Below are positions 11,601 to 60,756 of a DNA stretch of 64,000 bases, in pieces. Numbering within the stretch: the stretch's first letter is position 1; each line of letters begins with the position of its first letter. Where the stretch lies: IMG/VR virus record IMGVR_UViG_3300007609_001079, positions 37,662 through 101,661 of that record; one strand, written 5' to 3'. Below the pieces are notes generated by a model. That model saw only the letters and a list, made by a program, of their open reading frames with translations. It was not told where the DNA came from and made no database searches. The position numbers and the translations under genes were made by a program. The stretch is from a virus.

Positions 11601-11763
11601 TTTTTGCGTGAGCAATATCTCCTGCTAAATAAATAACAGAATCTTCAATTGCATCTTGTTTAACTTGATTTAAGAATTTTTCGAATACCAACCGATATTC
11701 TCTGTGTCTTTGGAGATTTCTAATGTGTAAATCTGCCAAATGATAAATCTTGTTTATTATCAT
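8605..11763 (-). CDS. Fused SbcD/Mre11 nuclease - SbcC/Rad50 ATPase (gp47-gp46-like)
   Basis: Phosphoesterase motifs ADLH, GD, GNHD, GDIH; Walker A APNASGKS; zinc hook CDVC; signature CSGME; Walker B LVIDEGFGTLD. Confidence 0.92.
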   Translation of the reverse strand: MIINKIYHLADLHIRNLQRHREYRLVFEKFLNQVKQDAIEDSVIYLAGDIAHAKTEMSPELVQEISWFLTECAKLRETILITGNHDCNLNNNHRLDVLTPIVENLNNSRIHYLRDTGVYNIHNLTFVVYSILDDKENWPKGKDVEGENKIVLFHGPVNKAQTDIGYTVSSNSFQVDMFDGFDMAMLGDIHKRQTFGEGYEWVAYAGSMVQQNHGELLENHGYLLWDVPTRTFTEHHIHNDYGFLTVDVIDGQIPQWVYDEVDTKLPKYPRLRLRFTNTEPSDMKLRITELKKLFKVAEVTVTRTDTIGQLKTNQKVNKNIVGNVKDETFQNQLIRDYLERQYLLEEGELDKITDINKDLNTQIDDSDSMGNILWTPKTLEFSNMFSYGEGNKIKFDNAQGIVGIFAPNASGKSSLFDALSFVIYDKTSKTNVAKNILNNRSDKFYCKFNFEIDGVDYFIERTAKYVRKKTAVKVDVNFWSESGGVITSLNGEQRRETNQNIEKYLGKFEDFVLTTLSLQGNNALFIDKSQSERKEILSQFIGVDIFDKLYQKASDENRDNATLIRKFKSDDFTTKLANIDTQLKTDKSEYNLLEINQSSLTTEEDGLNKQIIYLNSKIVKLNADSGVSIEELESRLKILESKLDEVKTKKSSTQELITHREELQLTLEEILDTYDEEKLENGIQKIQEGKTKLQRAESEVDKIQIKLESLRERKEHLDKHRYNENCDVCMDNSQTILEQKASVDSQIQDGELHLVKFNEGIQIISQSLQELKDIEDEYVKYKEVKEKEDKLDREISQLINKLSTTETEEIRLDTQVVQQKQLIEEYYKNEEQIKQNKEIRSQISEVRSKLDIVKNDLKKVNKDILTLNGKVSALQNQKESIQERISEVKDLEQQSKLFDYYLNALSKDGVSYELIEKSLPMIEGEVNNILGQIVDFGMQLEIDGKNINAYLVYGDQRWSLEMCSGMERFISGLAIRVALINVCNLPRPNFLVIDEGFGTLDSENLQSLFMLFTYLKTQFDFVMIISHIDSMRDVVDNLIEIKKVEGFSHVKF

Positions 11764-12539
11764 ATAATCTTGTTTGTGTTGATGAAATTGAATAGTTCAT
11801 CTGCTATTAATTTATAACCTTCTTTATTTGGATGTTGAGTTGCACGGGTATCATATTTTTCTAAGTGCTCCCATATATCTATTCTATTTAATTTATTTAA
11901 CAAATCCCTAAAAGTATATTTTAATTCACCAAAAATAGGTTTAGTATCTATTAATTTAGTGTAATCATTCTTCAATGGTGGTTGTACCATATATTCAAAG
12001 GATTCACACATTATATATTTTATATCATACTCTTTAAATAATTTTTGTAAAAAAATTATATAATTTTGATTTACTATATTATAGTAATCCTGTGTAAATA
12101 ATTCGGTTACAAAGAATTTCTTATAATCGGATAGAAATTTATTAAATTGACTCGATACACCATGCTCATCATATGAGTTATAAAATCTATCAGGCGTTTC
12201 TAACAAATGCTTTACAGACCATGATACCCACTCACCTTGTGGTAAAAATGGAACATAATCTCTAAGAGATGATGAAAACATTATAGTAACAAAATCATCA
12301 GATGTAACATTACCATTTTCAATATCTTTGATAATATCATTAAACATTTTTCTATTTGAATTACCACTAATACCTTTATTAAGTACTTTGGGTATATTCA
12401 TTTTATCCGCCAATTTCTTTGGCCAGGCATGTTCATTTCTAAAATTTCTTTTATCGTTTGGAGATAGTGTATTTTCAATTAACACATCACTACCCTCACC
12501 TTCAGTCCAAGAACATCCATATGCAACTAATCTTTTCAT
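11760..12539 (-). CDS. SGNH/GDSL-fold hydrolase or acyltransferase-like protein
   Basis: GCSWTEG block I, NKGISGNSN block II, C-terminal HPNxxGY. Confidence 0.65.
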   Translation of the reverse strand: MKRLVAYGCSWTEGEGSDVLIENTLSPNDKRNFRNEHAWPKKLADKMNIPKVLNKGISGNSNRKMFNDIIKDIENGNVTSDDFVTIMFSSSLRDYVPFLPQGEWVSWSVKHLLETPDRFYNSYDEHGVSSQFNKFLSDYKKFFVTELFTQDYYNIVNQNYIIFLQKLFKEYDIKYIMCESFEYMVQPPLKNDYTKLIDTKPIFGELKYTFRDLLNKLNRIDIWEHLEKYDTRATQHPNKEGYKLIADELFNFINTNKII

Positions 12540-13477
12540 AAACTCATTAATTTCTGTGATATAATATCAGTAAAGTCTGTTTTCTTGGATTCTTTAAGAA
12601 TAGAATTGATTTGGGAGAATCCCATCTCACCTGCATCCTTTTCTGATGGTACTATATTTTTGGTTTCTATTCCTTGATTTTGAAATTGTAATGTATAACG
12701 TAACGCCTGTTCTTGAGCATCTTCATCAAGTAAGATATTGATGTTCTTAACTCCTTGTTTATATATATTATCATTTAAATTTCTTGGTATAAATTTACCA
12801 AGTATAGGAATTGCGTTTCTCTTCACAGCCATCGCATCGAATACTCCCTCTACTATTGTAATTGGTTCCTTCCAATTTATTTGGTTCTCAAACATGATAA
12901 TGTTTTTCGAAACCGGCGGGTTTTTATATTTAAATTTTTCCTCATCGAATACAGAACGTGCGATGAAGTAATTGAGTCTATTGTTAGAATCATAAGATGG
13001 AATAATAATACGACCGGAATAAAGACCAGTATCGCAATATCCGATATTATATCTAATAATGTCCTCTTTAGTAATACCACGAGAATTCGCATATTGTTTT
13101 ACCTTTCTGAACGTTGGGTTAAACCCCGTTGGTTCTTTTAGTAATGATTTAAATTCATTTGGTAACCTTAACTCAATCTTTTCTTCTTCGGTAGATGGAG
13201 TATATGTAACGTAATCATCCCCATAGATTTCAAAAATCTTTTTTAGTTTGTGGGAATCCGTATGTAACCTCCTTAATAGTGATTGAATTTTCTTTCCCTT
13301 TGAATCACAGACCCAACAATGCCATTGTTGAGTTTCAAGGTTTATTTGTAACTTCTTTTTGTGGTGATGACAGAATGGACAATGATGTGCCTGTTCATTT
13401 CCCTTCATGGAAGTACCAGTACCCAAAGTTTCATCAAGTATGTTTATAACTGTTATTCTATCTCTATGTGAAAGCAT
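12536..13477 (-). CDS. DNA primase (CHC2 zinc finger + TOPRIM)
   Basis: CPFC...HCWVC zinc finger; RIIIP; VEGVFDAM; LDED TOPRIM motifs. Confidence 0.9.
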   Translation of the reverse strand: MLSHRDRITVINILDETLGTGTSMKGNEQAHHCPFCHHHKKKLQINLETQQWHCWVCDSKGKKIQSLLRRLHTDSHKLKKIFEIYGDDYVTYTPSTEEEKIELRLPNEFKSLLKEPTGFNPTFRKVKQYANSRGITKEDIIRYNIGYCDTGLYSGRIIIPSYDSNNRLNYFIARSVFDEEKFKYKNPPVSKNIIMFENQINWKEPITIVEGVFDAMAVKRNAIPILGKFIPRNLNDNIYKQGVKNINILLDEDAQEQALRYTLQFQNQGIETKNIVPSEKDAGEMGFSQINSILKESKKTDFTDIISQKLMSL

Positions 13478-13494
13478 ACTAATTTTTTATTTGA

Positions 13495-13528
13495 TACAAA
13501 TATACGAAAAATATTTAATATATCCAAA
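13495..13528 (-). promoter_or_regulatory. Bacteroidota sigma-A-type promoter (-33 TTTG / -7 TATATTTG) for the primase-SbcCD operon
   Basis: Minus strand TTTGGATATATTAAATATTTTTCGTATATTTG matches the TTTG...TAnnTTTG consensus. Confidence 0.75.
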
Positions 13529-13807: not shown

Positions 13808-13846
13808 AATTTTATATTTTATCTTTTACAAGACTAATATACGAAA

Positions 13847-14890: not shown

Positions 14891-14916
14891 AAATTAAATA
14901 TAAGAAATAGTTTACA

Positions 14917-15904: not shown

Positions 15905-15915
15905 ATCTTACGATT

Positions 15916-35022: not shown

Positions 35023-36729
35023 TTAAAATATTTTCTTCTTTACAATAAAGTTACCAAGAACCAATGTATCCATTTCACAATCTAAGAAAGTTTTGATTGC
35101 CGTTAAAGGGTCTAACACCATTGTCTGGTCTTTTAGATTGAATGAAGTATTTAAAACCATTGGATACCCATTATCCTTTTCGAGTTGTTGTAATAACTTA
35201 TACATTCTTCTGTGGTGATTGTTGGATACTGATTGTATTCTTGCAGAACCATCAATGTGAGTAATTGCAGGAAGATACTTTTGATGTTCTTCTTTTACCT
35301 TTACCACTTGGTTCATATAAGGAACTACTTTATCGTAATGGAAGTAACGAGTTTGTTCTTCTAACTTTACCATTGGAGCGAATGGTCTGAACCCTTCACG
35401 TTTTTTAATTACTCGATTTACTCTTGCCTTCATTTGTGGGTCACATGGATTTGCAAGTATCGAACGATTACCTAATGCTCGCGAACCAAATTCCATAGGA
35501 CCCTCGAACCAACCCACCACATTACCTTCAGTAATTTGTTTGGATATAATTGGTATAAGTTCTGAATCTATTTTATGTTGGTAATATACTTCACTCTTCA
35601 TTGAAATTAAAACTTCTTCCATTTCTTCTCTTGAATAAGAAGGACCTAAGTAAGGATTAGTATTATCAATTCTTGGTGAATCTGGGTTGGTTCTATAAAA
35701 GAATTCTAACGCACAACCAATAGCAGAACCTGCATCAGATGGTGCAGATGGAATCCATAATTGTTTGTATAAAGATTTCTCTAAGATTTTCCCATTAGCA
35801 GTTCCGTTGTATGCACATCCCCCACTTAAACATAAGTTAGTAGTTGAACGAGTAACATATAACTTATCAATTAAACGAAATAACAAAAACTCATATTCGT
35901 GTTGTAAGGTTGCCGCTAAATCTTTATGGTCTTGAGTAAGTTCTTCTTCGGGAAATCTATTTGGTAATCCCAACAAAGAACTCAACTTCTCATTAAACAT
36001 GTGGTCATCTGACCAATCATAAGTAAAATATTTCATATCCAATTCAAATCCACCATCTTTAGTAGTTTTGTAAAGTTTCTGAAATTGTTTTAAATAGGTT
36101 TCGTGATTTCCATACGGAGCCAATCCCATTACCTTATACTCACCTTCATTAGGTTTAAATCCAAGAAAAGCAGTAAAGGCAGAATATAACATCCCCAATG
36201 AATGAGGGAAATTAATCGATTGTAGAGGGAATAATTTATTTCCTTCTCCATAATATAGAGAAGTTGTTTCCCACTCCCCTACACCATCTACCGAAAGAAT
36301 AGAGGACTTTTGGAATGGAGATGTAAAGTAAGAATATGCAACGTGAGATAAATGATGGTCTCCATACTCAATATCTACATAAGGATGTGTGATTTCAAGT
36401 ATCTGTTGTTCGATTTCTTCGAACTTTTCTTTATTACGTTGGATGATTTCTAAACGATGTTCTTTCTCAGATTTAGGTCCTCGTTTAGTTGATTGTTCAA
36501 TTCTATCTAATTTAATTTTTGGATTATCGTAAAAACAAACATCGGTAATTTCTCTACCATCAACGTTAAATTTTTTCTTTAACCAATTAATAGTATTAGT
36601 AGGGAAGGATGAATCGTGTTTGATACCCGTGAATCTTTCTTCTTCACAAGCACCCAACACTTTTCCATCTTTTAATAAGGCTGCGGCTGAATCATGGTAT
36701 CCACAACTAATTCCTAATATATAACTCAT
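35023..36729 (-). CDS. Carbamoyltransferase (NodU/CmcH family)
   Basis: GYHDSAAAL...EEERF, HHLSH, DGVGE, GEYKVMGLAPYG, EFGSRALGNRSIL, KKREGFRPFAP, LNTSFN. Confidence 0.93.
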   Translation of the reverse strand: MSYILGISCGYHDSAAALLKDGKVLGACEEERFTGIKHDSSFPTNTINWLKKKFNVDGREITDVCFYDNPKIKLDRIEQSTKRGPKSEKEHRLEIIQRNKEKFEEIEQQILEITHPYVDIEYGDHHLSHVAYSYFTSPFQKSSILSVDGVGEWETTSLYYGEGNKLFPLQSINFPHSLGMLYSAFTAFLGFKPNEGEYKVMGLAPYGNHETYLKQFQKLYKTTKDGGFELDMKYFTYDWSDDHMFNEKLSSLLGLPNRFPEEELTQDHKDLAATLQHEYEFLLFRLIDKLYVTRSTTNLCLSGGCAYNGTANGKILEKSLYKQLWIPSAPSDAGSAIGCALEFFYRTNPDSPRIDNTNPYLGPSYSREEMEEVLISMKSEVYYQHKIDSELIPIISKQITEGNVVGWFEGPMEFGSRALGNRSILANPCDPQMKARVNRVIKKREGFRPFAPMVKLEEQTRYFHYDKVVPYMNQVVKVKEEHQKYLPAITHIDGSARIQSVSNNHHRRMYKLLQQLEKDNGYPMVLNTSFNLKDQTMVLDPLTAIKTFLDCEMDTLVLGNFIVKKKIF

Positions 36730-41328: not shown

Positions 41329-42369
41329 TTATATTATATTAGTTTTACTTATAATTTCATTATCCATATCAACAAACTCCCAATACTCAAGATTATATAT
41401 ACCATCTTGTGCATATTTCTTACATAATGTTTGATTGTGAAGTAATGTTGGTATCATCTCTATATAAATGTTTTCTAATTCTTGTATGGATAACGATGAT
41501 ATATAATCTATATTTTTTTTAATTAATTTAATTCGTTTTTTATAATCACTTTCCAAGTCATAACTTTCATCCCACCACTTATTAAATGTTTTAAAACCAT
41601 AATTATGTAACGTTTTTAAATAATTTGGCCCAGATACTAATATAAATGGTTGACCCGCTGTAAAACATTTATCTGTTTTTTCTGTTATATGAATAGATTT
41701 ATTATAAGTAGTTGTTTCGGTTACAATATTACAAAATGATTTAGTTTGATGAGGTGATACAAATCCTCGAGCAAATAAAGTTTTATAAAACGGTATTTGT
41801 AAATCATCCAATACTAAGTGTCTTTCATTGGTTGGTTCTTCTGGAGCAAATGATAAATATGAATCATTTTTATAATTTTTAATTAAAAAATCAAACATAT
41901 CTCGTCTATGTGGCTTATCCACTCGATTTAGACAAATAAACTTTTTTTTAAATTTTCTTGGTTTTATGGTCTTGGGATGGATACTCGTATATCCAAACAT
42001 CATGGGATATGAGTGAAATTTAAAACCATCTTCTTTATATTTAGTTGGATATAAATCGTTATCAACAAAATACAATTGGTCTGATTTATTTAATTCTTTG
42101 AATGCATCTACTATAACTTTTTTAAAAAAAATACTTTGGGTTTTTATTTTCGCAGATTCAGCATGTTCAAACCACCAAAAATCATAATTTTTATATTCTG
42201 AAATTATATTCTTAATAACGTTTTTAATAAAATCCAAATCATCATATATGTGTGTCTTATTAAAATAACGTATAGGTAAATTATAATTTTTATTAAAACA
42301 TAGCTTAGATATATCAATTATATCTTTACGATTCGATTTACAAAAAGATAAAGTATCATATCCAACCAT
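41329..42369 (-). CDS. Glycosyltransferase-like accessory protein
   Basis: FICLNR...HR, IVTET...ITEKT...PFIL...GFKTF...DESYD; paralogue of 13847..14890. Confidence 0.45.
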   Translation of the reverse strand: MVGYDTLSFCKSNRKDIIDISKLCFNKNYNLPIRYFNKTHIYDDLDFIKNVIKNIISEYKNYDFWWFEHAESAKIKTQSIFFKKVIVDAFKELNKSDQLYFVDNDLYPTKYKEDGFKFHSYPMMFGYTSIHPKTIKPRKFKKKFICLNRVDKPHRRDMFDFLIKNYKNDSYLSFAPEEPTNERHLVLDDLQIPFYKTLFARGFVSPHQTKSFCNIVTETTTYNKSIHITEKTDKCFTAGQPFILVSGPNYLKTLHNYGFKTFNKWWDESYDLESDYKKRIKLIKKNIDYISSLSIQELENIYIEMIPTLLHNQTLCKKYAQDGIYNLEYWEFVDMDNEIISKTNII

Positions 42370-42373: not shown

Positions 42374-44137
42374 TTACATTAAGCTTTTATAACCATGTTC
42401 TTTATTAACACGTTTAATATTATCGGTTAATCTTTTTGATATTGTTTCAATTTTTTCAAAAAAAGTATCTAAATTAGAATCATCTATTTTTTTAATTTGA
42501 TTAATATATTCTCTTAAAGTTTTAACTTCAGTTGCATAATTAGTATCTATTAGAGCTTTATTTATAAATGAATCTTTTTCTGCCAATTTTTTATTTAACT
42601 CATCACGTAATAATTCTAATTCAGCAACGTATGCGGTTTGATGTAATGTCTTGGATATAAATGAATCCTTTTCAGCTAATTTTTTATTTAATTCATCTCT
42701 GATTAATTCAAGTTCCTTAACGTATCCTGTTTCGTGTAATGTCTTGGATATAAATGAATCCTTTTCAGCTAATTTTTTATTTAACTTATCTCGTTCTATT
42801 TCAACCTCGATTATATACTCTTGTTGTTTTTTAATATGCTCTTTTTGTGCACCAATTGTTTCTATTGCTTTATCACCAACATCATCTTTTAAAGTTTGAT
42901 ATTTTAAATACCACTCCAAATCACTAAATTCAGGGTATATATCAAAAAAAGATTCTTCTCTGATTTTATCCAATTTAACATTATAATCAATAAATTCTTT
43001 TAATTTTTCTGTATCACCATCTTCCTTTAGATATTTTATTACTTTTTTAAATTCATTAATAGATAATGCAGAACTTTTCAGAGTTTCTAACCAAGATATA
43101 TGTTCATTATATAATTTAGTTAATCTATCTTTATGGTGCTTAGGTAAATTACGTATATCATATGCATGTGGTTCTGTTAATAAATTTATCTTTATATCAT
43201 TTGGTAATATAAATTTCTTAGTAACCCATTCTCTATGAAATTCCAATATATTGTAAACATTTAAAATACCAATTGTTGGTATTATTTCAAAATTCACATC
43301 TGGCATTTCTTTTAGTAGTTTTTTTCTATTATTAACTACATCTTTCCATACTATATTTTTTCGTTGATATTCTCCTTGCTTATATGATGCGTCTAAGCTT
43401 GCTCCAATGTTTACAAACTGAAAGTTTTTCCATAATGAAATAATATCTTTATTTTTATAATTTAATGATGAAAAATTTGTATTATATGTTAATCGTATAT
43501 TTTTACTATATCCCATTTCTATCGCAGCTTCTAAAATCTTATAATGATTATCTTGCATGAGTGGTTCTCCCCCTGCAAAAAATATTTCATCAACATGTGG
43601 AATAGAATCTACAATAAACATCATCGTTTCAGCAGATATGGATTCTTTATAAACATCAACCTTTTCTTTTGGCTTAATACCCAACTTAACTTCATCAGAA
43701 TACCAAGATGTTGAAAATGTAGAATTACATATTCTACATTTTAAATTACATTTATTATCAAATCTAATATCTAACCTTTTTGGTTCAATTGATTTTAGTG
43801 AAAAATCTTCATTAGTATTTTCTAAAACTTTATCAATATATTTACCATAGAATTCATTATGAAATTGCCTATAACTTTCATTCTTTGATATTTTTTCTTG
43901 CTTCCAACAGGAACCACACTCTTTTGCTTTTTCACCATTAAATAATTTATATCTTAATAATTTAGCATTTTCGGAATTATATATTTCTTCAATAGTACCA
44001 TCATTTAGATTACCAAATGGATTATATCGTGTGTAAGTACAACATGGCATTACTTCTTTACTAACACCAAAATGAATTTCTGTCCATGGTGCAATACAAA
44101 ATGTATCTTTAAAATATTTCTTACCCTTTAAACTCAT
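42374..44137 (-). CDS. Radical SAM enzyme with N-terminal SPASM/twitch-like domain and C-terminal coiled-coil repeats
   Basis: CIAPW...PCC...CGSCW; CNLKCRIC; FAGGEPL; YNTN. Confidence 0.88.
   Translation of the reverse strand: MSLKGKKYFKDTFCIAPWTEIHFGVSKEVMPCCTYTRYNPFGNLNDGTIEEIYNSENAKLLRYKLFNGEKAKECGSCWKQEKISKNESYRQFHNEFYGKYIDKVLENTNEDFSLKSIEPKRLDIRFDNKCNLKCRICNSTFSTSWYSDEVKLGIKPKEKVDVYKESISAETMMFIVDSIPHVDEIFFAGGEPLMQDNHYKILEAAIEMGYSKNIRLTYNTNFSSLNYKNKDIISLWKNFQFVNIGASLDASYKQGEYQRKNIVWKDVVNNRKKLLKEMPDVNFEIIPTIGILNVYNILEFHREWVTKKFILPNDIKINLLTEPHAYDIRNLPKHHKDRLTKLYNEHISWLETLKSSALSINEFKKVIKYLKEDGDTEKLKEFIDYNVKLDKIREESFFDIYPEFSDLEWYLKYQTLKDDVGDKAIETIGAQKEHIKKQQEYIIEVEIERDKLNKKLAEKDSFISKTLHETGYVKELELIRDELNKKLAEKDSFISKTLHQTAYVAELELLRDELNKKLAEKDSFINKALIDTNYATEVKTLREYINQIKKIDDSNLDTFFEKIETISKRLTDNIKRVNKEHGYKSLM
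42530..42795 (-). repeat. Three tandem 93-bp (31-aa) coding repeats
   Basis: RD(K/E)LNKKLAEKDSFI(S/N)K..L...Y..E occurs three times; DNA gtaatgtcttggatataaatgaatccttttcagc at 42643 and 42736. Confidence 0.9.
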
Positions 44138-45516
44138 TTTAAATTATCTAACCTCAGTATTTCATTTTTTATTTTTATATTCCACGGACCCCAAGTTATA
44201 TTATCCAATAACCACTTTCTATAATAAGGTGGTATTGATGCAACTGGTTTGCCCGAGTATTTGCCAAAGGTCATATAAACTTTTTCTATATCACCATCTT
44301 CGTTTTTCTTTTCTGAAAGATTTATACCTCCTTCTAAGTGAACACCAATTTCGTGCATTGGAATACCAGTAATCTGTTTTTTATTCTCTCCATAAAGTTC
44401 CCAATTTTCATCACCATCTTGCTTGTAATAAAGTTCTTCTACTTTTCCGAACTTTTCTACCGAACCCACGAAATCTACCACCAAACAATCTTTCTTGTTC
44501 TCGTGGATACGAGTTCCTCTACCAACAAACTGATACCACCAAGAAATAGAGGCAGTGGGTCTTCCTGTAATCAAACAATCCAATTCTGGATAATCGAATC
44601 CAACCGTTAGTACGTTCACTTGTACGATAACTCGTGTTTTCTGAGAACGGAAATCTTCTATGATTCTTCTTCGTTCATCTTTAGAAGTACCACCATGAAC
44701 TACTTCAGCATTTGGAATTCTGCCAGCAAGTTGGGTAGCCTGTTCTATCGTTGGTACCGCAACTAAGATAGATTTTCTATCAACTAATTCGGCAACTTTC
44801 TTTACAATTTTATTACCAATGTTTTGGTTTTCATAAGAACGAGCAATTGAATCATTGGTATATTCAGCACCACTTGAATTATAAACAAGAGCACCAGTAT
44901 CAAAATCATAAGATTGATAAACAAGTGGTGTCCAATATCCTAACTTGACAATATCTTGAATCTGTGAAACATGTAGAATAAACTTAAAGAACATTCCATG
45001 TTTACTTCGATTGGTTAACATTACCAACTTCGAGAAAGGACCAGCATCTCCCATATTGGTTTGTAACTTTAAAGGAGTTGCAGTTAATCCAAGAACGTGG
45101 GTTGCTTTCATTCCATCAACGAATCTCCTTAGTTGTCCTGATTTAGCACGTGGGTATCTATCACATTCATCAATAATGATTTTAGTTACCCCCATCTCTC
45201 TAAATTTACTCGCTATCTTAATGATAGAACCAATGGTTGCATAGGTAACATCACCAAGTTCTTTACTTCCCATAGAAGCAGAATAAATCGAAGCTTCACC
45301 ACCAAGAGTGATAAACTTATCATAGTTTTGTTCTAATAATTCTTTGGAAGGTTGTAAGACAAGAAGTTTTTCACCAAGTTCTTTAGCAATAGCAGCGATA
45401 ACAATCGATTTACCGAAAGCCGTTGGGGCAACGATAATCGATGGTTTCATCTTTTTAGTTCTAAAGAACTCTACACCGATTGCCACCGGCTCTACTTGGT
45501 TTTCACGTAACTTCAA
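44134..45516 (-). CDS. SF2 DEAD/DEAH helicase (RadD/YejH-like)
   Basis: APTAFGKS, DECD, LTATP, LTVGFD, QFVGRGTR; C-terminal MTFGKYSG...IP..Y..WL module. Confidence 0.9.
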   Translation of the reverse strand: MKLRENQVEPVAIGVEFFRTKKMKPSIIVAPTAFGKSIVIAAIAKELGEKLLVLQPSKELLEQNYDKFITLGGEASIYSASMGSKELGDVTYATIGSIIKIASKFREMGVTKIIIDECDRYPRAKSGQLRRFVDGMKATHVLGLTATPLKLQTNMGDAGPFSKLVMLTNRSKHGMFFKFILHVSQIQDIVKLGYWTPLVYQSYDFDTGALVYNSSGAEYTNDSIARSYENQNIGNKIVKKVAELVDRKSILVAVPTIEQATQLAGRIPNAEVVHGGTSKDERRRIIEDFRSQKTRVIVQVNVLTVGFDYPELDCLITGRPTASISWWYQFVGRGTRIHENKKDCLVVDFVGSVEKFGKVEELYYKQDGDENWELYGENKKQITGIPMHEIGVHLEGGINLSEKKNEDGDIEKVYMTFGKYSGKPVASIPPYYRKWLLDNITWGPWNIKIKNEILRLDNLK

Positions 45517-46022
45517 ATTATATTATTTTTTTTAGATAAACTTCTAAATCTATCATCGGAATCCACATCGTATATATCTTCATAGTAAATTATATCTATA
45601 TTAAGTACCAAACTCAACTTTTTCAAATTAGAATTTAAATTTAATATAGTATTATATACTTCATTTAAATTAGGAGTTGATTCCCATATATATTTATCAT
45701 GTTTTGAAATTCCATTTGATAAATTCCATTGTAGAAATGCGTAACTTTTTGCACATTCTAATAAATCTCTCCTACTTAATAATATTATTTCATCAAATTT
45801 CTTAGAATATTTTACATAAAATTCTATAATATCACTTACCCTTGGTTGCCCTATTAATGATTTAACAATATAATCATCATCATTATCTAACCAATTATAA
45901 TCAGTATGATTTTTTTCAAATGAAAATGGCTCATCATACTTTTTTAAATTCCTTTTCAATGATATATCATTCAAAAGTGATGTAGAACCTGTTCGTGGTA
46001 ATGATATTATTAAAACCTTCAT
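45513..46022 (-). CDS. Sulfotransferase-like P-loop protein
   Basis: ISLPRTGSTSL, EPF, LSRRD...S, IYYED. Confidence 0.65.
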   Translation of the reverse strand: MKVLIISLPRTGSTSLLNDISLKRNLKKYDEPFSFEKNHTDYNWLDNDDDYIVKSLIGQPRVSDIIEFYVKYSKKFDEIILLSRRDLLECAKSYAFLQWNLSNGISKHDKYIWESTPNLNEVYNTILNLNSNLKKLSLVLNIDIIYYEDIYDVDSDDRFRSLSKKNNII

Positions 46023-46238: not shown

Positions 46239-46802
46239 TTACAATAATGTTTTTTTAGTCTTATATGATACCGATGAAATAATCCCACCAATAACCCTAC
46301 GATTAATAGTTGATGTTGGGTTCACCTTTGGTAAATGTTTTAAATCAGATGGAAATATCAATAAATCCCCAACCTCCGGTAACATTGAGATGGTTTCATT
46401 ATCATCTTTAAAGTAGATATAACCATCATCCTGTTTTAAATTATTTGGCATACTAACATAATATACGTATGTCCATTCTCCTATCGTATTTAAATTATTC
46501 ATACGTAAATGATTATGATAATCAATTCCTTCAGGGGAATCTTTATCTACAATGTAAACCCAATTTTTAAAAGTGTAAATTAATTCATTTGTTTTGTAAA
46601 TATCTTTTTTTATTATATCAATTATTTGTTTATTGATATCATCAATGAGACCACCATGGATAACAACATCTGATTGTATTCTTGGGGAAATGTTTCCATT
46701 TTTATTATCGGTAATTGCAAGTGAATCTAAAGTAACATTATAATCAACTTCTAATGATAACTTTTCAAAATCAGAATCCAATTTATACTTTCGTATATCC
46801 AT
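46239..46802 (-). CDS. Putative 2OG-Fe(II) oxygenase
   Basis: YHNH, WTYVYY, LLIFPSDLKH...RRVI. Confidence 0.75.
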   Translation of the reverse strand: MDIRKYKLDSDFEKLSLEVDYNVTLDSLAITDNKNGNISPRIQSDVVIHGGLIDDINKQIIDIIKKDIYKTNELIYTFKNWVYIVDKDSPEGIDYHNHLRMNNLNTIGEWTYVYYVSMPNNLKQDDGYIYFKDDNETISMLPEVGDLLIFPSDLKHLPKVNPTSTINRRVIGGIISSVSYKTKKTLL

Positions 46803-46977: not shown

Positions 46978-47553
46978 TTATAAAAGGTTAAATTGATAAT
47001 TATTTGTTATTTCATATAATGAAATTTTATTATTATTTTTTAAACAATCCAAATAGTTAAATTCTATTATTTTATTAAATGCTATTTTATTTTTAAAACT
47101 ATGAATTGCATTGGTAACTGTATTAAATTGGGTATCATCAAATACAATATATTTAATTTCCATTTTGCTAGCTAATAAAATATCATTAACTACACAATTA
47201 AATTCATGACACCCATCGATAAAAATTAAATCAAATTTATTTTTATATAATTTGTAATTAATCTTATTTGATTCTGAGTGTAAAAAATTAAATTTATCTA
47301 CATATTTTTCTTTTAGTAATCTTGAACATTCAAGTGTATAATCAGTATCAACTTTATCAACGCTAGTTATATTAACCCCATACATATCTAATAATAGATG
47401 TGATGTGTGTCCTGCATTAAATCCTATTTCAAATAGGGATTTAAATTTAGTATAATTATAAACCTTATTCCAAAATTTACTATAATTACCATCTATGGTT
47501 GGATACCACTTTAAATCGTAATTATTAGAAATTTTAGATGGAGGCCATTTCAT
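46978..47553 (-). CDS. Class I SAM-dependent methyltransferase (Methyltransf_24-like)
   Basis: FEIGFNAGHTS, FDLIFIDGCH, IVFDD. Confidence 0.8.
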   Translation of the reverse strand: MKWPPSKISNNYDLKWYPTIDGNYSKFWNKVYNYTKFKSLFEIGFNAGHTSHLLLDMYGVNITSVDKVDTDYTLECSRLLKEKYVDKFNFLHSESNKINYKLYKNKFDLIFIDGCHEFNCVVNDILLASKMEIKYIVFDDTQFNTVTNAIHSFKNKIAFNKIIEFNYLDCLKNNNKISLYEITNNYQFNLL

Positions 47554-50202: not shown

Positions 50203-50574
50203 TTAATAGGAAATCTTTAAGGTTTTAGATTTTCTTTCGTTTTTCTTATCAATGGTTAAGATTAATAAACCATTCTCGAATTTGGCTTCTGATTTAGTTC
50301 CATCGTAATCAGTACCAACTGTCAAACTTAAATCAATATCTTTTACAAATCGAGAAGTTCCTTCTTCTTTTTTTGCCTTGATTGTGATTTCATCTTCAGT
50401 AACATCAACTTTAATATCCTTTGGATTATGACCAGTAGTGTTGATAGTTACTTTTTGTTTTCCATCTTCTAGAACTTCTGCTTCAAAAGTTCCATAAGTT
50501 CTTGTTGGAGTTGTAAATGGTTCTCTTGTTAAATCATTGATTAGTTTGTCAAAAGTTGTTAATGTTCCGTACAT
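50203..50574 (-). CDS. Small heat-shock protein (Hsp20/alpha-crystallin)
   Basis: G...DIKVDV...ITIKA, AKFENGLLILTI, C-terminal LKI motif; start adjusted to MYGTL. Confidence 0.88.
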   Translation of the reverse strand: MYGTLTTFDKLINDLTREPFTTPTRTYGTFEAEVLEDGKQKVTINTTGHNPKDIKVDVTEDEITIKAKKEEGTSRFVKDIDLSLTVGTDYDGTKSEAKFENGLLILTIDKKNERKSKTLKISY

Positions 50575-50681
50575 ATCTTTTTTCCTTTTTAATTTATTAA
50601 ACATTTTATATCTTATATTACCAAATCTATACCAAATTAGTTTTTACAAAATTTTGTCAGTATCGGGTGACAAATTGTCAG

Positions 50682-51729: not shown

Positions 51730-52190
51730 TAATCTAAAACGATATTAAGTGTTTGTGTGATATCCCATTCATTAACTTTACATTCTACCCGTAGTGTATC
51801 GAATTTCATACTATATATGGGCGCAATCATATTAAAAATAGAATCATATTTATTTGGATACGATGCCAAATTTGTGGTAGGTACCTCATCTCCATGAAAT
51901 ATTGTTCCGTTTATTTTCCAAATTATATTAGATTTCCAAGATACCTTTGTGGGTTCAAGTGTATTTAAAACTCTTCCTGCTATTTTGTGAGTGGTCTGAT
52001 TGGAGTATGGGTTTAAAGTTAAATGATAATAACCATTAGAATCCATTGGCAATCTACCATAGAGTTCTAATGTTGGTACGATTGATACTTCATTAATTTC
52101 TTCAGTAGAACACGATGAGAATATAAGAAGTGCAGCAATAACACCAATTAAGATAACCCAATCTAATAATCTATTTAACTTTTCTCCCAT
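51729..52190 (-). CDS. Putative lipoprotein
   Basis: Hydrophobic stretch then FSS-C lipobox followed by STEE. Confidence 0.6.
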   Translation of the reverse strand: MGEKLNRLLDWVILIGVIAALLIFSSCSTEEINEVSIVPTLELYGRLPMDSNGYYHLTLNPYSNQTTHKIAGRVLNTLEPTKVSWKSNIIWKINGTIFHGDEVPTTNLASYPNKYDSIFNMIAPIYSMKFDTLRVECKVNEWDITQTLNIVLD

Positions 52191-52672
52191 TATAATAATC
52201 TATCTAAGATACTATCCCAATTTGGGTATTCTGATTCGATACCGTTTTCCCAATTCACACCGAATTGTAAAAGTTCTCCACTAAACTCACCGGCCCCATT
52301 CTTGGTTCTATCATCAATTAGATAATCACCAAGTAATAAATCTTTTCTGTGGGTTATGAACATTCGTTTGTGAAATAGATTTCCAAAGTGGTCTTCAATC
52401 CACAATCTTTTATCCATCGCAGAACCAGCATTACCCCAAGGAGCAGAAGTGGCAATGAATAATTCATACTTACCACTTTCGTGTAGTTTCTTTACTGCCT
52501 CGATTGCACCCTCCATTGGTGGTGGGTTTCTAAACAAACCTTGGATATGGTCTGGCATATCTTTCCATCGTTCTTCTAAATGTGGGTGTTTCTCAAACCA
52601 ATCTTTAATTGCTGCTCCGAAGTCAACCAATACACCATCCATATCGATGTAAACTATTTTCTTCTCACTCAT
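52190..52672 (-). CDS. 5'(3')-deoxyribonucleotidase (HAD, NT5C-like)
   Basis: YIDMDGVLVDF, KDLLLGDYLIDDR. Confidence 0.88.
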   Translation of the reverse strand: MSEKKIVYIDMDGVLVDFGAAIKDWFEKHPHLEERWKDMPDHIQGLFRNPPPMEGAIEAVKKLHESGKYELFIATSAPWGNAGSAMDKRLWIEDHFGNLFHKRMFITHRKDLLLGDYLIDDRTKNGAGEFSGELLQFGVNWENGIESEYPNWDSILDRLL

Positions 52673-55914: not shown

Positions 55915-56634
55915 TTATAATAATGTTTTAACTTCCATTGGCATATTTTTCATTTTAAGATATCCACAATAATGAGTATAATATGTATTACCTGTTTCAA
56001 AACTAACTCCATTGCTAAAGTATTTAACGGAATAATCTTTAGATAATAAAGTTAATAAATATTGAGTATGTGCTGCAGTAGTAAACGTTGGATTTAAATT
56101 ATGAGAGTGTTTGTTTAATACATTATATAAGTATTTCCAATCATCAATATATCGGTTTTTTAATTCTAAATTTGGAATTCGTAATATTCCTACGTTATAT
56201 ACACCTCGTTTAGAATTTAACCAATATGATAAATTAATATCTATATTATTTTTTATATACTCAATGGTTTTAGAATATGCCCAATCCCAATTTAAAGTTT
56301 CAATTCCATCAAAAAATAAATCACTACTATCAAACTCAATTCGGTTTTTATAAATCACATCATTATCTGATAGGAAATAATCATCATTGGGTTCATTTTC
56401 TAAAACATATAATTTAAAACTATCCCATGAGTTATCATAATCATCATCTATATATCGTACATCAATATCAAACTTATTTCCGAATTCAATATCATTAGTA
56501 TATAGTGTCGGAATATATCCCAATCCATCTATACTTTTTAAAGAACCCATTAACCATTTTTCTTGATTAGTGGGTTCTTTATATATTTCGAACTTAGGTT
56601 TTTTGTAAGTATATATTATACGATTTACATCCAT
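55915..56634 (-). CDS. GT-A-like (DxD) accessory protein
   Basis: FKLY...YFLSDNDVI, YNVGIL, YTHYCG, typical of nucleotide-diphospho-sugar transferase folds. Confidence 0.5.
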   Translation of the reverse strand: MDVNRIIYTYKKPKFEIYKEPTNQEKWLMGSLKSIDGLGYIPTLYTNDIEFGNKFDIDVRYIDDDYDNSWDSFKLYVLENEPNDDYFLSDNDVIYKNRIEFDSSDLFFDGIETLNWDWAYSKTIEYIKNNIDINLSYWLNSKRGVYNVGILRIPNLELKNRYIDDWKYLYNVLNKHSHNLNPTFTTAAHTQYLLTLLSKDYSVKYFSNGVSFETGNTYYTHYCGYLKMKNMPMEVKTLL

Positions 56635-57321: not shown

Positions 57322-57813
57322 TTATAGAATGGATTTTGTATTGGTAGTATCCATTCTATACCAAATTACTAAAACATTTCGGTTACCCGAAATGAGTTCC
57401 GTAACTTCATGATAAGTCTTTCCTCCATTATAAAGTAAATACTCACCCTCTTCTTTAAATTCTATTTTCTTTTTATTAAATAAAAAATCACCTCCTTCTG
57501 AATTATTTTCTAACATAATAACACATGTTAAATCAGAATCATCAACATGCTCTCTAACCTTAGAACCTTTAGTATATTCTATTTTATGAATGGATGTTAA
57601 ATACGTAGAATCCCAATTGGTTATTTCAGATATAAAATTATTTAATGGAGTGTGGTTTAATGTATATTTTATAGTATCCATATTATATGCACGGTTACTG
57701 TAATATATTCCAGGAGCTCTAAGTTTAAGTAGTTTTAATTCTGAATTACCCATTAGAGGTGTTGAACCTAATATGGATTTTAATTCTAATAATTTTTCTT
57801 TAGTTATTTTCAT
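57322..57813 (-). CDS. 2OG-Fe(II) oxygenase
   Basis: EHVDDS (HxD), EGGDF, YHEV...GNRNVLVIW. Confidence 0.8.
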   Translation of the reverse strand: MKITKEKLLELKSILGSTPLMGNSELKLLKLRAPGIYYSNRAYNMDTIKYTLNHTPLNNFISEITNWDSTYLTSIHKIEYTKGSKVREHVDDSDLTCVIMLENNSEGGDFLFNKKKIEFKEEGEYLLYNGGKTYHEVTELISGNRNVLVIWYRMDTTNTKSIL

Positions 57814-58333: not shown

Positions 58334-58357
58334 AAAACATGTTTATAGGTATAAATA

Positions 58358-58741
58358 TTATATTATGGTTTTTTGAATATTAGAAGTATCTTTATTAGAT
58401 TTTAACTGAGAGGTTTTATTTATTAAATCATTCTTTATTTCAACAATACCCGAACATCGTTCATAGTATTCTCTTTTTTCAAACCACTTTAATGATAACT
58501 CCAACACATCCATATAATCTTTTTTTTCTATTAAGATTGCTGCTGGTGCGTTCTCGTGGATAACCATCACCAATGATTCTCTGTTCTTTCTATTTGCTCG
58601 TTGGATGTTTTGAGATATTTGCCATAAGACATCATCACCACGGGATTCTAAGAATCTTTTTACTTGTGGATTACCATTATTGATATCCAAATATTTTTTC
58701 CAATTAACTGTACTTAAAGCTTTTCCCATTCTGTACTCCAA
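58358..58741 (-). CDS. Hypothetical protein with a UVR-like coiled-coil motif
   Basis: FEKREYYERCSGIVEIKNDL resembles the UvrB/C ExYExAAxxRD motif. Confidence 0.5.
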   Translation of the reverse strand: MEYRMGKALSTVNWKKYLDINNGNPQVKRFLESRGDDVLWQISQNIQRANRKNRESLVMVIHENAPAAILIEKKDYMDVLELSLKWFEKREYYERCSGIVEIKNDLINKTSQLKSNKDTSNIQKTII

Positions 58742-58748
58742 TTGTTTT

Positions 58749-59510: not shown

Positions 59511-59535
59511 ATCTATAAATATAGATTGAAACGAA

Positions 59536-59694
59536 TTATGGTTTTAATTTGGAGTACGCAAGTTCGATAGAACTATGTAAATCCAACTTAGGATTTATTT
59601 CTCGTAATTCCTTTGCGAAGTTAATAACCTCATCGGTGATTCCGAGAGAATGTGCGTGGTGTAGTATTTCTTCTACCAATTCTGAATTTGTCAT
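59536..59694 (-). CDS. Small hypothetical protein (52 aa), absent from the ORF track
   Basis: MTNSELVEEILHHAHSLGITDEVINFAKELRE...; fills the gap. Confidence 0.6.
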   Translation of the reverse strand: MTNSELVEEILHHAHSLGITDEVINFAKELREINPKLDLHSSIELAYSKLKP

Positions 59695-59709
59695 AACTTA
59701 TTATAAGTA

Positions 59710-60756
59710 TTATATTATTTTATAATCTATAAAGTTGATAATATCTTTTATGGAATTTTTTAATCGGGTTGTTCGCAATGTAGTTATACCATTCTCCAAA
59801 TATATAATTATTTCTTTCTTTTCATCCGATGATAGATTTTTTATTGAATATTTTTTAGGATATGTTACAAAGTTATCAATGTGAAGTTCATTTTCATTAT
59901 TTATCAAATTTAATTTAAATAATTGTTCTATAAATTCATATATATCTTTTACATTATATGTTCCAATTGTATAAGAGATGTGCGTTTTTATATTATTATC
60001 ATGTAACGTTTTAATATTCTTTATAAGTGTGTTTGTATTTAATCCAACTCGTATAGCTTCACCCTTTTCATATAAACCATCTAAACTTACCTGTACAAGA
60101 ACTTCTTTAAATTCTTTCCATAATAAAAATAAATCATTCATTTCATATTTTATTACGGATAAATTTGTATTATATATTATTGATATATTGTTATTGTGTT
60201 TATGTAAAAAATTTAAAATTTCAAAATGTTCTTTGGTAATTAATGGCTCTCCACCTGCAAAGTATATGTGCTTTATGTTTTTTATATATGGAATCAACTC
60301 ATCTACAAACCCATCCTTTATATTTACTACTTTACTTATTCCAAGTTCTTTATGGTTATTTGTATAGTGCATGGATGAATATTCATGATTACACATTATA
60401 CATTTAAAGTTACATAGGTTTGAAAATCTAACATCTATATACTCAAAGTTAGGAGTTATATATCCGTTGGCATCCATATCATATTCAGATGATAATTGTT
60501 TTTTCCAATTCTCTCGTAGTGATTCTATACCAACTCGTTCGGTATCCCAACATATGTTACATAGTTTATTTTGAACACCGTTTGTTAAATCTAATCTAAG
60601 TTGTCTAAATTCTTTACTATTGTAAGCTTCTTCTATTGTTTGGTTTTTTAAGCTAATTGGATTTTTAAAATATCCCGAAATACAACACGCTTTTAATGTA
60701 CCATCCGTGTGTGTATATAGGTGTTTAAATGGTAATGGACAGAATACATCTTTCAT
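59710..60756 (-). CDS. Radical SAM enzyme with SPASM/twitch-like N-terminal domain
   Basis: CPLPF...ACC...CNICW; CNFKCIMC; FAGGEPL; paralogue of 42374..44137. Confidence 0.88.
   Translation of the reverse strand: MKDVFCPLPFKHLYTHTDGTLKACCISGYFKNPISLKNQTIEEAYNSKEFRQLRLDLTNGVQNKLCNICWDTERVGIESLRENWKKQLSSEYDMDANGYITPNFEYIDVRFSNLCNFKCIMCNHEYSSMHYTNNHKELGISKVVNIKDGFVDELIPYIKNIKHIYFAGGEPLITKEHFEILNFLHKHNNNISIIYNTNLSVIKYEMNDLFLLWKEFKEVLVQVSLDGLYEKGEAIRVGLNTNTLIKNIKTLHDNNIKTHISYTIGTYNVKDIYEFIEQLFKLNLINNENELHIDNFVTYPKKYSIKNLSSDEKKEIIIYLENGITTLRTTRLKNSIKDIINFIDYKII

What the first reader, a model, noticed from the sequence alone, without database searches (positions are those of the whole stretch)
11760..60756. 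Dispersed tailoring enzymes share a C-terminal tag (K/N-rich linker + two aliphatic residues): candidate phage addressing system
Seen: ten accessory proteins of several unrelated folds, scattered across about 49 kb, end almost the same way. They are SGNH 11760 ...NTNKII, GT-like 41329 ...SKTNII, radical SAM 42374 ...GYKSLM, sulfotransferase 45513 ...KKNNII, 2OG oxygenase 46239 ...TKKTLL, methyltransferase 46978 ...YQFNLL, GT-A-like 55915 ...EVKTLL, 2OG oxygenase 57322 ...NTKSIL, UVR-like 58358 ...IQKTII and radical SAM 59710 ...IDYKII; the carbamoyltransferase ends similarly (KKKIF). None of the structural proteins (ends such as KKDK, RFDT, KLDF, LEVD, GREL, QEKT, TVEK, GRVV, NFTE), SbcCD, the helicase, MetK or PhoH carry it. 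Codons differ between copies, so the conservation appears to be at protein level. Established: S/T-x-hydrophobic-COOH is the class I PDZ ligand pattern, and free hydrophobic C-termini are read by PDZ/TPR domains and proteases. Inference: the tail docks interchangeable modifying enzymes on one scaffold or assembly site (e.g. for virion or glycan decoration), or is a shared degron. I know of no described phage system like this.
Basis: partly seen in the sequence, partly recalled or inferred. Interest (0 to 1): 0.85.

Follow-up and report, generated by a model that had tools for sequence, protein, structure and literature searches.

The report
Shared C-terminal tag on phage enzymes
Ten unrelated accessory enzymes of this uncultured aquatic phage end in the same short floppy tail (polar or lysine residues, then two aliphatic residues as the last residues); selection keeps the tail at the protein level, it has not been described in print, and it most likely acts as a label read by one still-unknown partner.

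Summary
All ten listed proteins end as stated. The motif [KNST][ILM][ILM]-COOH closes 10 of 69 window ORFs, against 0.6 expected from internal tripeptides. It also beats per-gene shuffles and spurious AT-rich ORFs.

It is not a general AT-rich effect. Four comparison phages show no enrichment, while the one close relative (45-kb IMG/VR contig) shows the same excess, partly on other enzymes.

The tag is selected as protein:
- Homologues of the 2OG oxygenase, methyltransferase and SGNH hydrolase keep the aliphatic end across 50-80% identity, despite linker indels.
- Codons and stop codons vary.
- The tail lies outside the predicted fold.

In the relative, and in 79 further phage loci, the same tag (consensus K-[KSTN]-[LI]-[IL]) marks 25% of ORFs around an ATP-grasp-like/tandem-Hint self-cleaving protein, and about 50% just downstream of it. 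That gene is absent from this 101-kb contig, which is about 55% complete.

Its PDZ reading is not: no PDZ or TPR was found and P-2 is not restricted to Ser/Thr. A degron is not excluded, and the reader of the tag is unknown.

This scan has already reported the same tag on more than ten other phage genomes. I found no paper describing it.

The parts
11760..12539 (-). SGNH/GDSL hydrolase, tail ..NTNKII. It is the lone tagged gene, next to the primase.
   Evidence: Pfam PF00657, E 9e-7. 77% of 120 homologues at 50-82% identity end in two aliphatic/Phe residues (NNII, NKIL, NKVI); a minority stop right after the last helix.
41329..42369 (-). 346-aa enzyme of unknown family (weak GT10 lead), tail ..SKTNII
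   Evidence: No Pfam hit. Atlas lead to fucosyltransferase family at score 0.80 only. Distant homologues end LNKV, VPLI, KGLI, GRLL.
42374..44137 (-). Radical SAM enzyme with N-terminal SPASM domain, tail ..GYKSLM
   Evidence: Pfam PF04055 and PF13186. 6 of 12 homologues near the ligase/Hint gene are tagged.
45513..46022 (-). Sulfotransferase-like P-loop protein, tail ..KKNNII
   Evidence: Family alignment A5 shows a PRxGST loop plus R..S. Pfam Sulfotransfer_1 only at E 0.028. Family present in 44 loci, 67% tagged.
46239..46802 (-). 2OG-Fe(II) oxygenase, tail ..TKKTLL
   Evidence: Pfam PF13759/PF13640, below cut-off. Family present in 29 loci, 43% tagged.
46978..47553 (-). Class I SAM methyltransferase, tail ..YQFNLL
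   Evidence: Pfam PF13578. Homologues at 50-53% identity end ..KTQII..ETQII..KNKII, with a 2-residue linker indel.
55915..56634 (-). 239-aa DxD-motif protein (GT-A-like, unproven), tail ..EVKTLL
   Evidence: No Pfam or PDB sequence match. Invariant D90-x-D92 in A6. 10 of 20 homologues tagged.
57322..57813 (-). P4H-like 2OG-Fe(II) oxygenase, tail ..NTKSIL
   Evidence: Pfam PF13640. All 13 homologues end in [IL][ILF] despite linker indels. In the AF2 model the fold ends at residue 152 and the tail is coil with pLDDT below 50. Family present in 76 of 81 loci, 71% tagged.
58358..58741 (-). 127-aa protein with a UVR-like W..KE.YE.C helix, a basic linker and tail ..IQKTII
   Evidence: Alignment A7: ends TII, TIL, KVI, NLI, KLI, ALI, TLI behind a linker of variable length.
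59710..60756 (-). Radical SAM enzyme with N-terminal SPASM domain, tail ..IDYKII
   Evidence: Pfam. The 88% identical orthologue in the relative ends ..FKII. 10 of 16 homologues tagged.
35023..36729 (-). Carbamoyltransferase, tail ..KKKIF; borderline member
   Evidence: Pfam PF02543 and PF16861. 5 of 17 homologues end HKIL; the rest end LIYK, LLYK or MFFK.
52190..52672 (-). NT5C 5'-nucleotidase ending ..DRLL; doubtful member, possibly a fold-intrinsic end
   Evidence: Pfam PF06941. Homologues end DYLL, EKLL, KRLL.
1..172 (-). 3' part of a third P4H-like 2OG oxygenase (173 aa, runs over the window start), untagged here (..KNQIND)
   Evidence: Pfam PF13640, E 1e-13. 45 of 54 homologues near ligase/Hint genes are tagged.

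Best explanation
The tails are a short linear motif selected at protein level. The consensus is K-[KSTN]-[LI]-[IL]-COOH, and it sits on a flexible polar linker outside the catalytic fold.

The motif labels the enzymes of one phage tailoring pathway. In related phages that pathway is encoded around, and mostly just downstream of, a self-cleaving ATP-grasp-like/tandem-Hint protein. Its usual members (P4H-like 2OG oxygenases, SET-like methyltransferases, SPASM radical SAM enzymes) suggest a protein or peptide substrate.

The tail most likely works in trans as a docking handle. One common partner binds the free aliphatic C-terminus and so brings interchangeable enzymes to the same substrate or assembly. 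The best candidate partner is the ATP-grasp/Hint protein or its product.

Shown: the tag exists, is selected as protein, lies outside the fold, is specific to a lineage and a pathway, and co-localises with the ligase/Hint gene in relatives. Inferred: that it is read by binding, and who reads it.

My odds that the tag is a real selected protein feature are about 0.9. The confidence of 0.45 given below is for the docking mechanism.
For: 1. Enrichment against three nulls, and absence in four comparison phages.

2. The close relative (radical SAM enzyme 88% identical) shows the same excess, 10 of 86 ORFs. This includes enzymes with no homologue here, among them a PF03567 sulfotransferase.

3. Protein-level conservation:
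- 2OG homologues at 53-69% identity all end K[SD]II, GLI, KKLI or KKLF, with a 2-residue linker insertion in some.
- The methyltransferase and SGNH families behave likewise.
- Orthologue pairs change codons but keep the residue class, for example TCC ATT CTA TAA against AGT TTG ATT TAA.
- All Ile codons, five Leu codons, both Ser codon boxes and all three stops occur at tag positions.

4. In the AF2 model of the 57322 oxygenase (pLDDT 91) the fold ends at residue 152 and the last four residues are below pLDDT 50.

5. Link to the ligase/Hint gene:
- In the relative, a 653-aa protein lies among the tagged genes.
- Its model (pLDDT 85) has two Hint domains (Z 18-20.6 to BIL and intein structures) behind an N-terminal part. 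That part matches YgiC, YjfC, glutathione synthetase and GspS only weakly.
- Around 79 homologues of it, 348 of 1391 unique ORFs (25%) carry the tag, against 2% internal frequency. The frequency is 50-56% at gene offsets 0 to +3 and 6-13% at plus or minus 14 genes.
- 49 of 55 distinct loci have at least two tags.

6. Homologues of the window's tagged proteins are tagged in those loci: 10/11, 16/25, 10/20, 10/16, 8/17 and 6/12. Homologues of its untagged proteins are not: PhoH 0/11, Hsp20 0/16.

7. Pathway specificity rather than enzyme-class specificity: six radical SAM paralogues in this genome's glycan cluster are untagged. This argues against a cofactor-delivery tag.
Against: - No binding was tested.
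- The candidate partner gene is absent from this 101-kb contig by sequence and by profile.
- Co-localisation only shows that tag and ligase/Hint belong to one pathway. It does not separate docking from a shared degron.
- No locus-specific 'flavour' of the tag was found (within-locus agreement z = 1.0, P 0.17). So there is no co-evolution signal pointing to a phage-encoded reader.
- Six of 55 ligase loci have at most one tag.
- There is a real nucleotide-level bias at the last codon (ATA 160 against 97 expected; NTA 28 against 11 in this genome). Not all of the pattern is protein-level.
Confidence: 0.45

Rival explanations
1. Shared degron or unfoldase handle. The basic stretch plus the aliphatic free end is recognised by a host AAA+ protease adaptor site (ClpX C-motif-2 type, as on MuA, RRKKAI) or by a tail-specific protease. 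All enzymes of the pathway would then be removed or remodelled together.
For: The form of the motif: Lys at P-3/P-4, aliphatic P-1/P0, obligatory free C-terminus, flexible linker. No phage-encoded reader was found and there is no lineage-specific tag flavour, as expected if a conserved host machine reads it.
Against: The tag is confined to one pathway's genes and is absent from other accessory genes of the same phages. It is missing in related phages that lack the ligase/Hint gene, although their hosts surely have Clp and Tsp proteases. Neither point is decisive.
Confidence: 0.2
2. Substrate tag for the ATP-grasp domain. The ligase activates the free C-terminal carboxylate of each tagged enzyme, as glutathione synthetase, GspS, RimK and TTL do with peptide carboxylates. 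It then extends it, amidates it, or joins it to an amine. Alternatively, the conserved P-3 Lys accepts the thioester made by the Hint domain.
For: The tag must be the very last residues. The N-terminal part of the linked protein resembles ATP-grasp enzymes that act on peptide C-termini (Foldseek E about 2e-5 to YgiC, YjfC, glutathione synthetase and GspS). The best Hint match is the Tetrahymena BUBL BIL2 domain (Z 20.6), which from my own knowledge mediates splicing-type conjugation to lysine. Lys dominates P-3 (163 of 348).
Against: The ATP-grasp assignment is weak (TM 0.2-0.35, no Pfam or PDB sequence match). No chemistry was tested. The ligase is not in this contig. A ligase that modifies some thirty different enzymes has no precedent.
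Confidence: 0.12
3. One reading: a class I PDZ-type or TPR-type reader, from phage or host, binds S/T-x-hydrophobic-COOH.
For: About 40% of tags have Ser or Thr at P-2 with a hydrophobic P0.
Against: K and N are as common as S and T at P-2, and P-1 is as constrained as P0. No PDZ or TPR domain was found in the contig, with positive controls. A host reader is not excluded.
Confidence: 0.07
4. Nucleotide-level by-product. The last codons serve the next gene (AU-rich initiation region, ATGA overlap) or contain a TATAA-type promoter, and the peptide is incidental.
For: - In this genome the last codon is NTA in 28 genes against 11.4 expected, and 9 of 10 tagged genes have the next start within 25 nt.
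- In relatives ATA is over-used at P0, and TGA stops are commoner on tagged genes.
Against: - Tags end ATT TAA, CTT TAG, TTA TAG and TTG TAA, so there is no fixed DNA word.
- 23% of genes followed by 41-100 nt spacers are still tagged, against 32% of overlapping genes.
- Equally AT-rich Phe and Tyr codons are rare at P0 and P-1.
- Spurious ORFs of the same DNA reach only 1.9%.
- Equally AT-rich phages lack the tag.
- Linker indels keep the end.
Confidence: 0.03

Closest known systems
PTS1 peroxisomal signal ([SAC]-[KRH]-[LM]-COOH) read by the TPR domain of Pex5 (own knowledge)
   Same: A three- to four-residue signal that must be the free C-terminus. It sits on a flexible linker, is shared by many unrelated enzymes of one compartment or pathway, and is read in trans by one receptor.
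   Different: The residue order differs: here polar/basic, then aliphatic, aliphatic. There is no TPR protein in the contig, no compartment is known, and the setting is a bacterial virus.
ClpX C-terminal recognition signal of the MuA type (RRKKAI-COOH) and other C-terminal degrons
   Same: Basic residues followed by an aliphatic free end on a flexible tail.
   Different: Here the tag is restricted to one gene set and to phage lineages that carry one ligase/Hint gene. Neither turnover nor remodelling was tested.
Encapsulin cargo-loading peptides, and the shared C-terminal tails of phage replisome proteins (T7 gp2.5/gp4 acidic tails; T4 clamp-binding tails) (own knowledge)
   Same: Unrelated proteins of one functional set carry the same short C-terminal peptide, which docks on one partner. 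The T4 and T7 cases are from phages.
   Different: Those tails are longer or acidic/aromatic and their readers are known (shell, polymerase, clamp).
Tetrahymena BUBL loci: BIL (Hint) domains flanking a ubiquitin-like domain (PDB 6y75, 6tmm)
   Same: This is the best structural match of the Hint domains of the linked 653-aa protein (Z 20.6, rmsd 1.8 over 146 residues). Both have tandem Hint domains with a short intervening segment.
   Different: There is no ubiquitin-like domain; the intervening segment is 0-15 variable residues. It is fused to an ATP-grasp-like domain, found only in phages, and its chemistry is untested. This comparison concerns the linked gene in relatives, not anything in the window itself.
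Cyanophage 8-12 gene tailoring clusters (carbamoyltransferase, 2OGFeDO, methylase, halogenase) described by Iyer et al. 2021, PMC7824862
   Same: The same mix of enzyme families appears in large aquatic phages. The paper proposes that they decorate a polysaccharide or make a secondary metabolite.
   Different: The paper mentions neither a shared C-terminal tail (0 occurrences of 'C-terminal tail') nor an ATP-grasp/Hint gene with these clusters.

Membership tests
Class I PDZ ligand (S/T-x-hydrophobic-COOH) | Ser or Thr at P-2, any residue at P-1, hydrophobic residue at P0 | tested here: not met
   In the window, P-2 is K, N, S, N, T, N, T, S, T, K. In 348 tagged relatives P-2 is K 99, S 77, T 68, N 60, and P-1 is constrained to L (212) or I (125).
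Class I PDZ ligand (S/T-x-hydrophobic-COOH) | A PDZ-domain reader is present | tested here: inconclusive
   No PF13180 or PF17820 match in the 101-kb contig at E up to 1, with 14 of 14 control genomes positive. The contig is only about 55% complete and host proteins were not searched.
PTS1-type signal | [SAC]-[KRH]-[LM]-COOH with a TPR receptor | tested here: not met
   P-1 is aliphatic, not basic. No TPR_8 match in the contig.
ClpX C-motif-2 / MuA-type degron | Basic residues then an aliphatic free C-terminus; ClpX-dependent recognition | not testable with these tools
   The form of the sequence is compatible. Recognition needs a biochemical or in vivo test.
K-x-[LI]-[IL]-COOH tag set around ATP-grasp/Hint genes (reported by this scan on other phage genomes; not in print) | Tail matches the consensus and is the extreme C-terminus of unrelated enzyme families | tested here: met
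   Ten proteins of at least seven different folds. Five have the canonical K-[ST]-aliphatic-aliphatic form and five are variants. The logo from 348 relatives is.
K-x-[LI]-[IL]-COOH tag set around ATP-grasp/Hint genes (reported by this scan on other phage genomes; not in print) | Tail kept at protein level in homologues and lying outside the fold | tested here: met
   homologues; codons; AF2 model.
K-x-[LI]-[IL]-COOH tag set around ATP-grasp/Hint genes (reported by this scan on other phage genomes; not in print) | The window's tagged proteins belong to the families that are tagged near the ligase/Hint gene | tested here: met
   Homologues tagged, by window gene start: 57322, 10/11; 45513, 16/25; 55915, 10/20; 59710, 10/16; 46239, 8/17; 42374, 6/12.
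K-x-[LI]-[IL]-COOH tag set around ATP-grasp/Hint genes (reported by this scan on other phage genomes; not in print) | ATP-grasp/Hint gene present in the same genome | tested here: inconclusive
   Absent from the 101-kb contig by protein and by profile search, but the contig is about 55% complete. It is present among the tagged genes of the close relative.
ATP-grasp superfamily (for the N-terminal part of the linked protein P0014) | ATP-grasp fold | tested here: inconclusive
   Foldseek hits to YgiC, YjfC, glutathione synthetase and GspS at E 2e-5 to 7e-5, but with TM of 0.2-0.36. No Pfam or PDB sequence match. The domain was not folded alone.
Hint / bacterial intein-like domains (for P0014) | Hint fold with N-terminal Cys and C-terminal His-Asn | tested here: met
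   Two Hint domains, residues about 290-466 and 470-653, with Z 18-20.6. Profile against PDB gives E 4e-19. C472, H465-N466 and N652 are invariant in 33 sequences.

The most novel reading that the evidence does not exclude
The tag is the handle of an undescribed phage protein-processing system. The ATP-grasp-like/tandem-Hint protein would recognise the free K-x-L-I carboxyl end, or its conserved Lys. It would then either dock a changeable set of about thirty protein/peptide-modifying enzyme families onto one substrate, or join them to it covalently. That would amount to a viral assembly line whose membership is written in the last four residues.
Probability: 0.15. Interest if true: 0.9.

Novelty: new variant of a known kind. 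Interest (0 to 1): 0.72.

Why it matters
If the tail is an address or docking label, it is a four-residue code that picks out the members of one phage tailoring pathway from sequence alone. At least 25 unrelated enzyme families in uncultured large aquatic phages carry it.

It would give a handle for finding the pathway's unknown substrate and reader. It would also be a compact, portable tag for recruiting enzymes.

It also affects annotation. These genes are usually read as independent auxiliary metabolic genes, whereas the tag suggests they act together.

For this window in particular, the tagged genes are spread over 49 kb rather than sitting in one operon. That fits a signal that works in trans.

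Tried and rejected
1. General AT-rich effect: rejected by four comparison phages and by spurious-ORF and shuffle nulls.

2. TATAA or late-promoter word formed by the last codon plus the stop: seven of ten window tags contain TATAA(T/A). The relative's tags end ATT TAA, CTT TAG, TTA TAG and TTG TAA, so it is not required.

3. Initiation region of the next gene: the tag frequency falls only from 32% to 23% between overlapping genes and genes with 41-100 nt spacers.

4. Cofactor-delivery tag for Fe or Fe-S enzymes: methyltransferase, sulfotransferase-like and SGNH enzymes carry it, and six radical SAM paralogues do not.

5. Reader search:
- No PDZ or TPR in the contig.
- The untagged families that travel with the ligase are an HxGH nucleotidyltransferase-like protein and a DUF2061 membrane protein. 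Neither is an obvious peptide binder, and neither is present here.

6. Co-evolution of tag flavour with locus: none.

7. Searches that found nothing:
- The ligase/Hint protein and the 57322 oxygenase have no match in 50,697 GenBank phage records.
- There is one match in 185,579 GTDB species genomes, on a 2.8-kb contig of a Cyanobium MAG.

The neighbourhoods of the closest metagenomic homologues and the ligase-tail binding idea therefore went untested.

9. Literature: four searches found no description of the tag.

Full report
**What is in the window.** The window is the last 64 kb of a 101.7-kb viral contig (31% GC, about 55% complete by CheckV). Nearly all genes lie on the minus strand. A large structural protein finds its best cultured relatives in Flavobacterium phage immuto (39% identity) and Microcystis phage Mel-JY01 (44%).

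Pfam supports:
- SGNH for 11760;
- radical SAM with an N-terminal SPASM domain for 42374 and 59710;
- 2OG-Fe(II) oxygenase for 57322, and weakly for 46239;
- a class I methyltransferase for 46978.

The other four have no Pfam family. 45513 has a sulfotransferase-like PRxGST loop, 55915 has an invariant DxD, 58358 has a UVR-like helix, and 41329 has only a weak GT10 lead. The untagged neighbours are the carbamoyltransferase, MetK, a helicase, UvdE, Hsp20, NT5C, dCMP deaminase, PhoH, PDF and an ArgRS-like protein.

**Is it more than chance?** Yes.
- [KNST][ILM][ILM]-COOH closes 10 of 69 window ORFs, against 0.57 expected from internal tripeptides.
- A per-gene residue shuffle gives a mean of 1.5 and a maximum of 8, against 13 observed for the slightly broader motif.
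- Spurious ORFs from non-gene frames of the same DNA end in two aliphatic residues surprisingly often (8%). The bare di-aliphatic end is therefore only 1.8-fold enriched. The full motif, with the polar residue, is 12.0% against 1.9% (P 1.4e-5).
- Four comparison phages of similar GC show no enrichment (1.0x to 2.0x). This genome shows 6.5x and its close relative 5.8x.

**DNA signal or protein signal?** I took the DNA rival seriously because this genome does write DNA signals into protein ends. Shine-Dalgarno-like GGGAG inside the last codons gives ..KGREL and ..KGRVV. The last codon is NTA in 28 genes against 11.4 expected.

The tag itself is not a DNA word:
- In the relative the tags end ATT TAA, CTT TAG, TTA TAG and TTG TAA.
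- Across 348 tagged relatives all Ile codons, five Leu codons, both Ser codon boxes and all three stops occur, with only an excess of ATA at the last position.
- 23% of genes followed by 41-100 nt of spacer are tagged, against 32% of overlapping genes.
- Orthologues keep the residue class through codon and indel changes. The 2OG oxygenase family ends KSIL, KSII, KDII, PHGLI, KKLI and DRSLI. The methyltransferase family ends FNLL, TQII and NKII with a two-residue indel. 77% of 120 SGNH homologues end in two aliphatic/Phe residues, while a minority stop right after the last helix.
- In a confident AF2 model of the 57322 oxygenase (pLDDT 91) the fold ends at residue 152. The last eleven residues are coil, and the last four have pLDDT below 50.

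**Where else it occurs.** A 45-kb IMG/VR contig (radical SAM enzyme 88% identical) has the same excess, 10 of 86 ORFs. It appears on orthologues of 57322, 58358 and 59710. It also appears on enzymes that have no homologue here, among them a PF03567 sulfotransferase.

Notes from this scan on other genomes said that such tags surround an ATP-grasp ligase/Hint protein, and I tested that claim.
- The relative encodes a 653-aa protein in the middle of its tagged genes.
- Its AF2 model (pLDDT 85) has two Hint domains, at about 290-466 and 470-653, with Z 18-20.6 to BIL domains and inteins. H465-N466, C472 and N652 are invariant.
- The N-terminal part gives only weak Foldseek matches to YgiC, YjfC, glutathione synthetase and GspS.
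- The family has 835 cluster representatives at E below 1e-3. It has no member in GenBank phages. In 185,579 species genomes it has a single member, on a 2.8-kb contig.
- In 79 IMG/VR loci around homologues, 348 of 1391 unique ORFs (25%) carry the tag, against 2% internal frequency. The logo is P-3 K, P-2 K/S/T/N, P-1 L>I, P0 I>L.
- The frequency is 50-56% for the genes just downstream and falls to 6-13% fourteen genes away.
- 25 unrelated families have at least three tagged members and at least 40% of members tagged.
- The most constant neighbour is the P4H-like 2OG oxygenase family of 57322 (76 of 81 loci, 71% tagged). SET-like (borderline Pfam), SPASM radical SAM, sulfotransferase-like, SGNH and SDR-like families follow.
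- Homologues of the window's tagged proteins are mostly tagged there, and homologues of its untagged proteins are not.
- Phages without the ligase/Hint gene (immuto, Mel-JY01 and two contigs) have no tag enrichment.

**What is special here.** The ligase/Hint gene is not in this contig. It may lie in the missing 45%. The tagged genes are not one operon. They form two loose groups (41.3-47.6 kb and 55.9-60.8 kb) plus a lone SGNH gene at 11.8 kb, interleaved with untagged repair and nucleotide-metabolism genes.

Within the same genome, six radical SAM paralogues of the glycan cluster and one P4H-like oxygenase lack the tag. The tag therefore follows pathway membership, not enzyme class or gene position. 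That fits a signal read in trans.

**Mechanism.** The supported steps are that the tag is a selected, flexible, strictly C-terminal peptide shared by unrelated enzymes of one pathway. That it is bound by a common partner is inference. I rank the readings as follows:
- Docking on a phage-encoded partner, best candidate the ligase/Hint protein: 0.45.
- A ClpX-type or Tsp-type degron: 0.2.
- A substrate tag for the ATP-grasp or Hint chemistry: 0.12.
P-2 is not restricted to Ser/Thr, and no PDZ or TPR is encoded in the contig.
- A DNA by-product: 0.03.

Two results weigh against a phage-encoded reader: there is no locus-specific tag flavour, and no candidate binder turned up among the conserved untagged neighbours.

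**Novelty.** C-terminal address and docking peptides are a known kind: PTS1, encapsulin cargo peptides, T4 and T7 replisome tails, and ClpX signals. This tag matches none of them in sequence or in reader.

Four literature searches found no description. Iyer et al. 2021 (PMC7824862) describe similar cyanophage tailoring clusters but no shared tail.

The scan has already reported the same tag on more than ten other phage genomes. This window is a further, dispersed instance, not a first sighting.

Noticed in passing
L011:10616-12577 (relative; protein P0014) and alignment A3: The ligase/Hint protein has two Hint domains in tandem, not one. The first ends in an invariant His-Asn, and 0-15 variable residues later the second starts with an invariant Cys. 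Homologues of 740-790 aa have a third Hint domain. Nearly all end ..VHNK, so the 'C-extein' is a single Lys.
   Followed up: partly
L011:12592-13248 (relative; protein P0015): Directly downstream of the ligase/Hint gene lies a 218-aa protein that starts MSFLPYSKV..DGS and ends ..IVHKTK. By eye it looks like a free-standing Hint-like domain without the Cys. It has no Pfam hit.
   Followed up: no
window 24298-24330 and 28284-28320 (- strand gene ends): Shine-Dalgarno-like GGGAGA and GGGAGG for the next gene lie inside the last five codons of two structural genes, so unrelated proteins end ..KGREL and ..KGRVV. Highly expressed structural genes seem to use SD sequences, while the accessory genes do not.
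   Followed up: no
whole genome G000, last sense codons: The last codon is NTA in 28 of 105 genes against 11.4 expected. ATA is used 11 times against 2.9 expected. This bias for A before the stop is not limited to tagged genes.
   Followed up: partly
window, intergenic stretches just downstream (3') of the - strand genes whose stops lie at 13529, 13847, 40353, 48581, 51418, 52736 and 62492: A TTTGG(A/T)ATA..N..TTTCGTAT-like intergenic motif recurs just downstream of these genes, ahead of the next gene.
   Followed up: no
window 42374-44137 and 59710-60756: Both tagged radical SAM enzymes have the SPASM auxiliary-cluster domain N-terminal to the radical SAM core (Pfam positions 14-78 and 6-70). 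That is the reverse of the usual order.
   Followed up: no
window 61652-62387 (-): There is a tRNA cluster here: Asp(GTC), Ser(TGA), Thr(TGT) and Glu(TTC). The 54-aa ORF at 61717-61881 is therefore spurious, and the 155-aa GTG ORF at 61947-62414 overlaps tRNA-Glu.
   Followed up: partly
window 50203-50604 (-): The phage Hsp20 and its homologues end in their own L/I-x-I/V motif (..LKISY, ..IKVD, ..ITVD). This gene travels with the ligase/Hint neighbourhood in 24 loci. I did not test whether its alpha-crystallin groove could also bind the enzyme tails.
   Followed up: no
L127 (CAYNGR010000277.1, 2.8-kb contig): The only ligase/Hint homologue in 185,579 GTDB species genomes sits on a short, high-coverage contig binned into an uncultured Cyanobium MAG. 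It is probably phage DNA, and it is a weak hint that some carriers infect picocyanobacteria.
   Followed up: no
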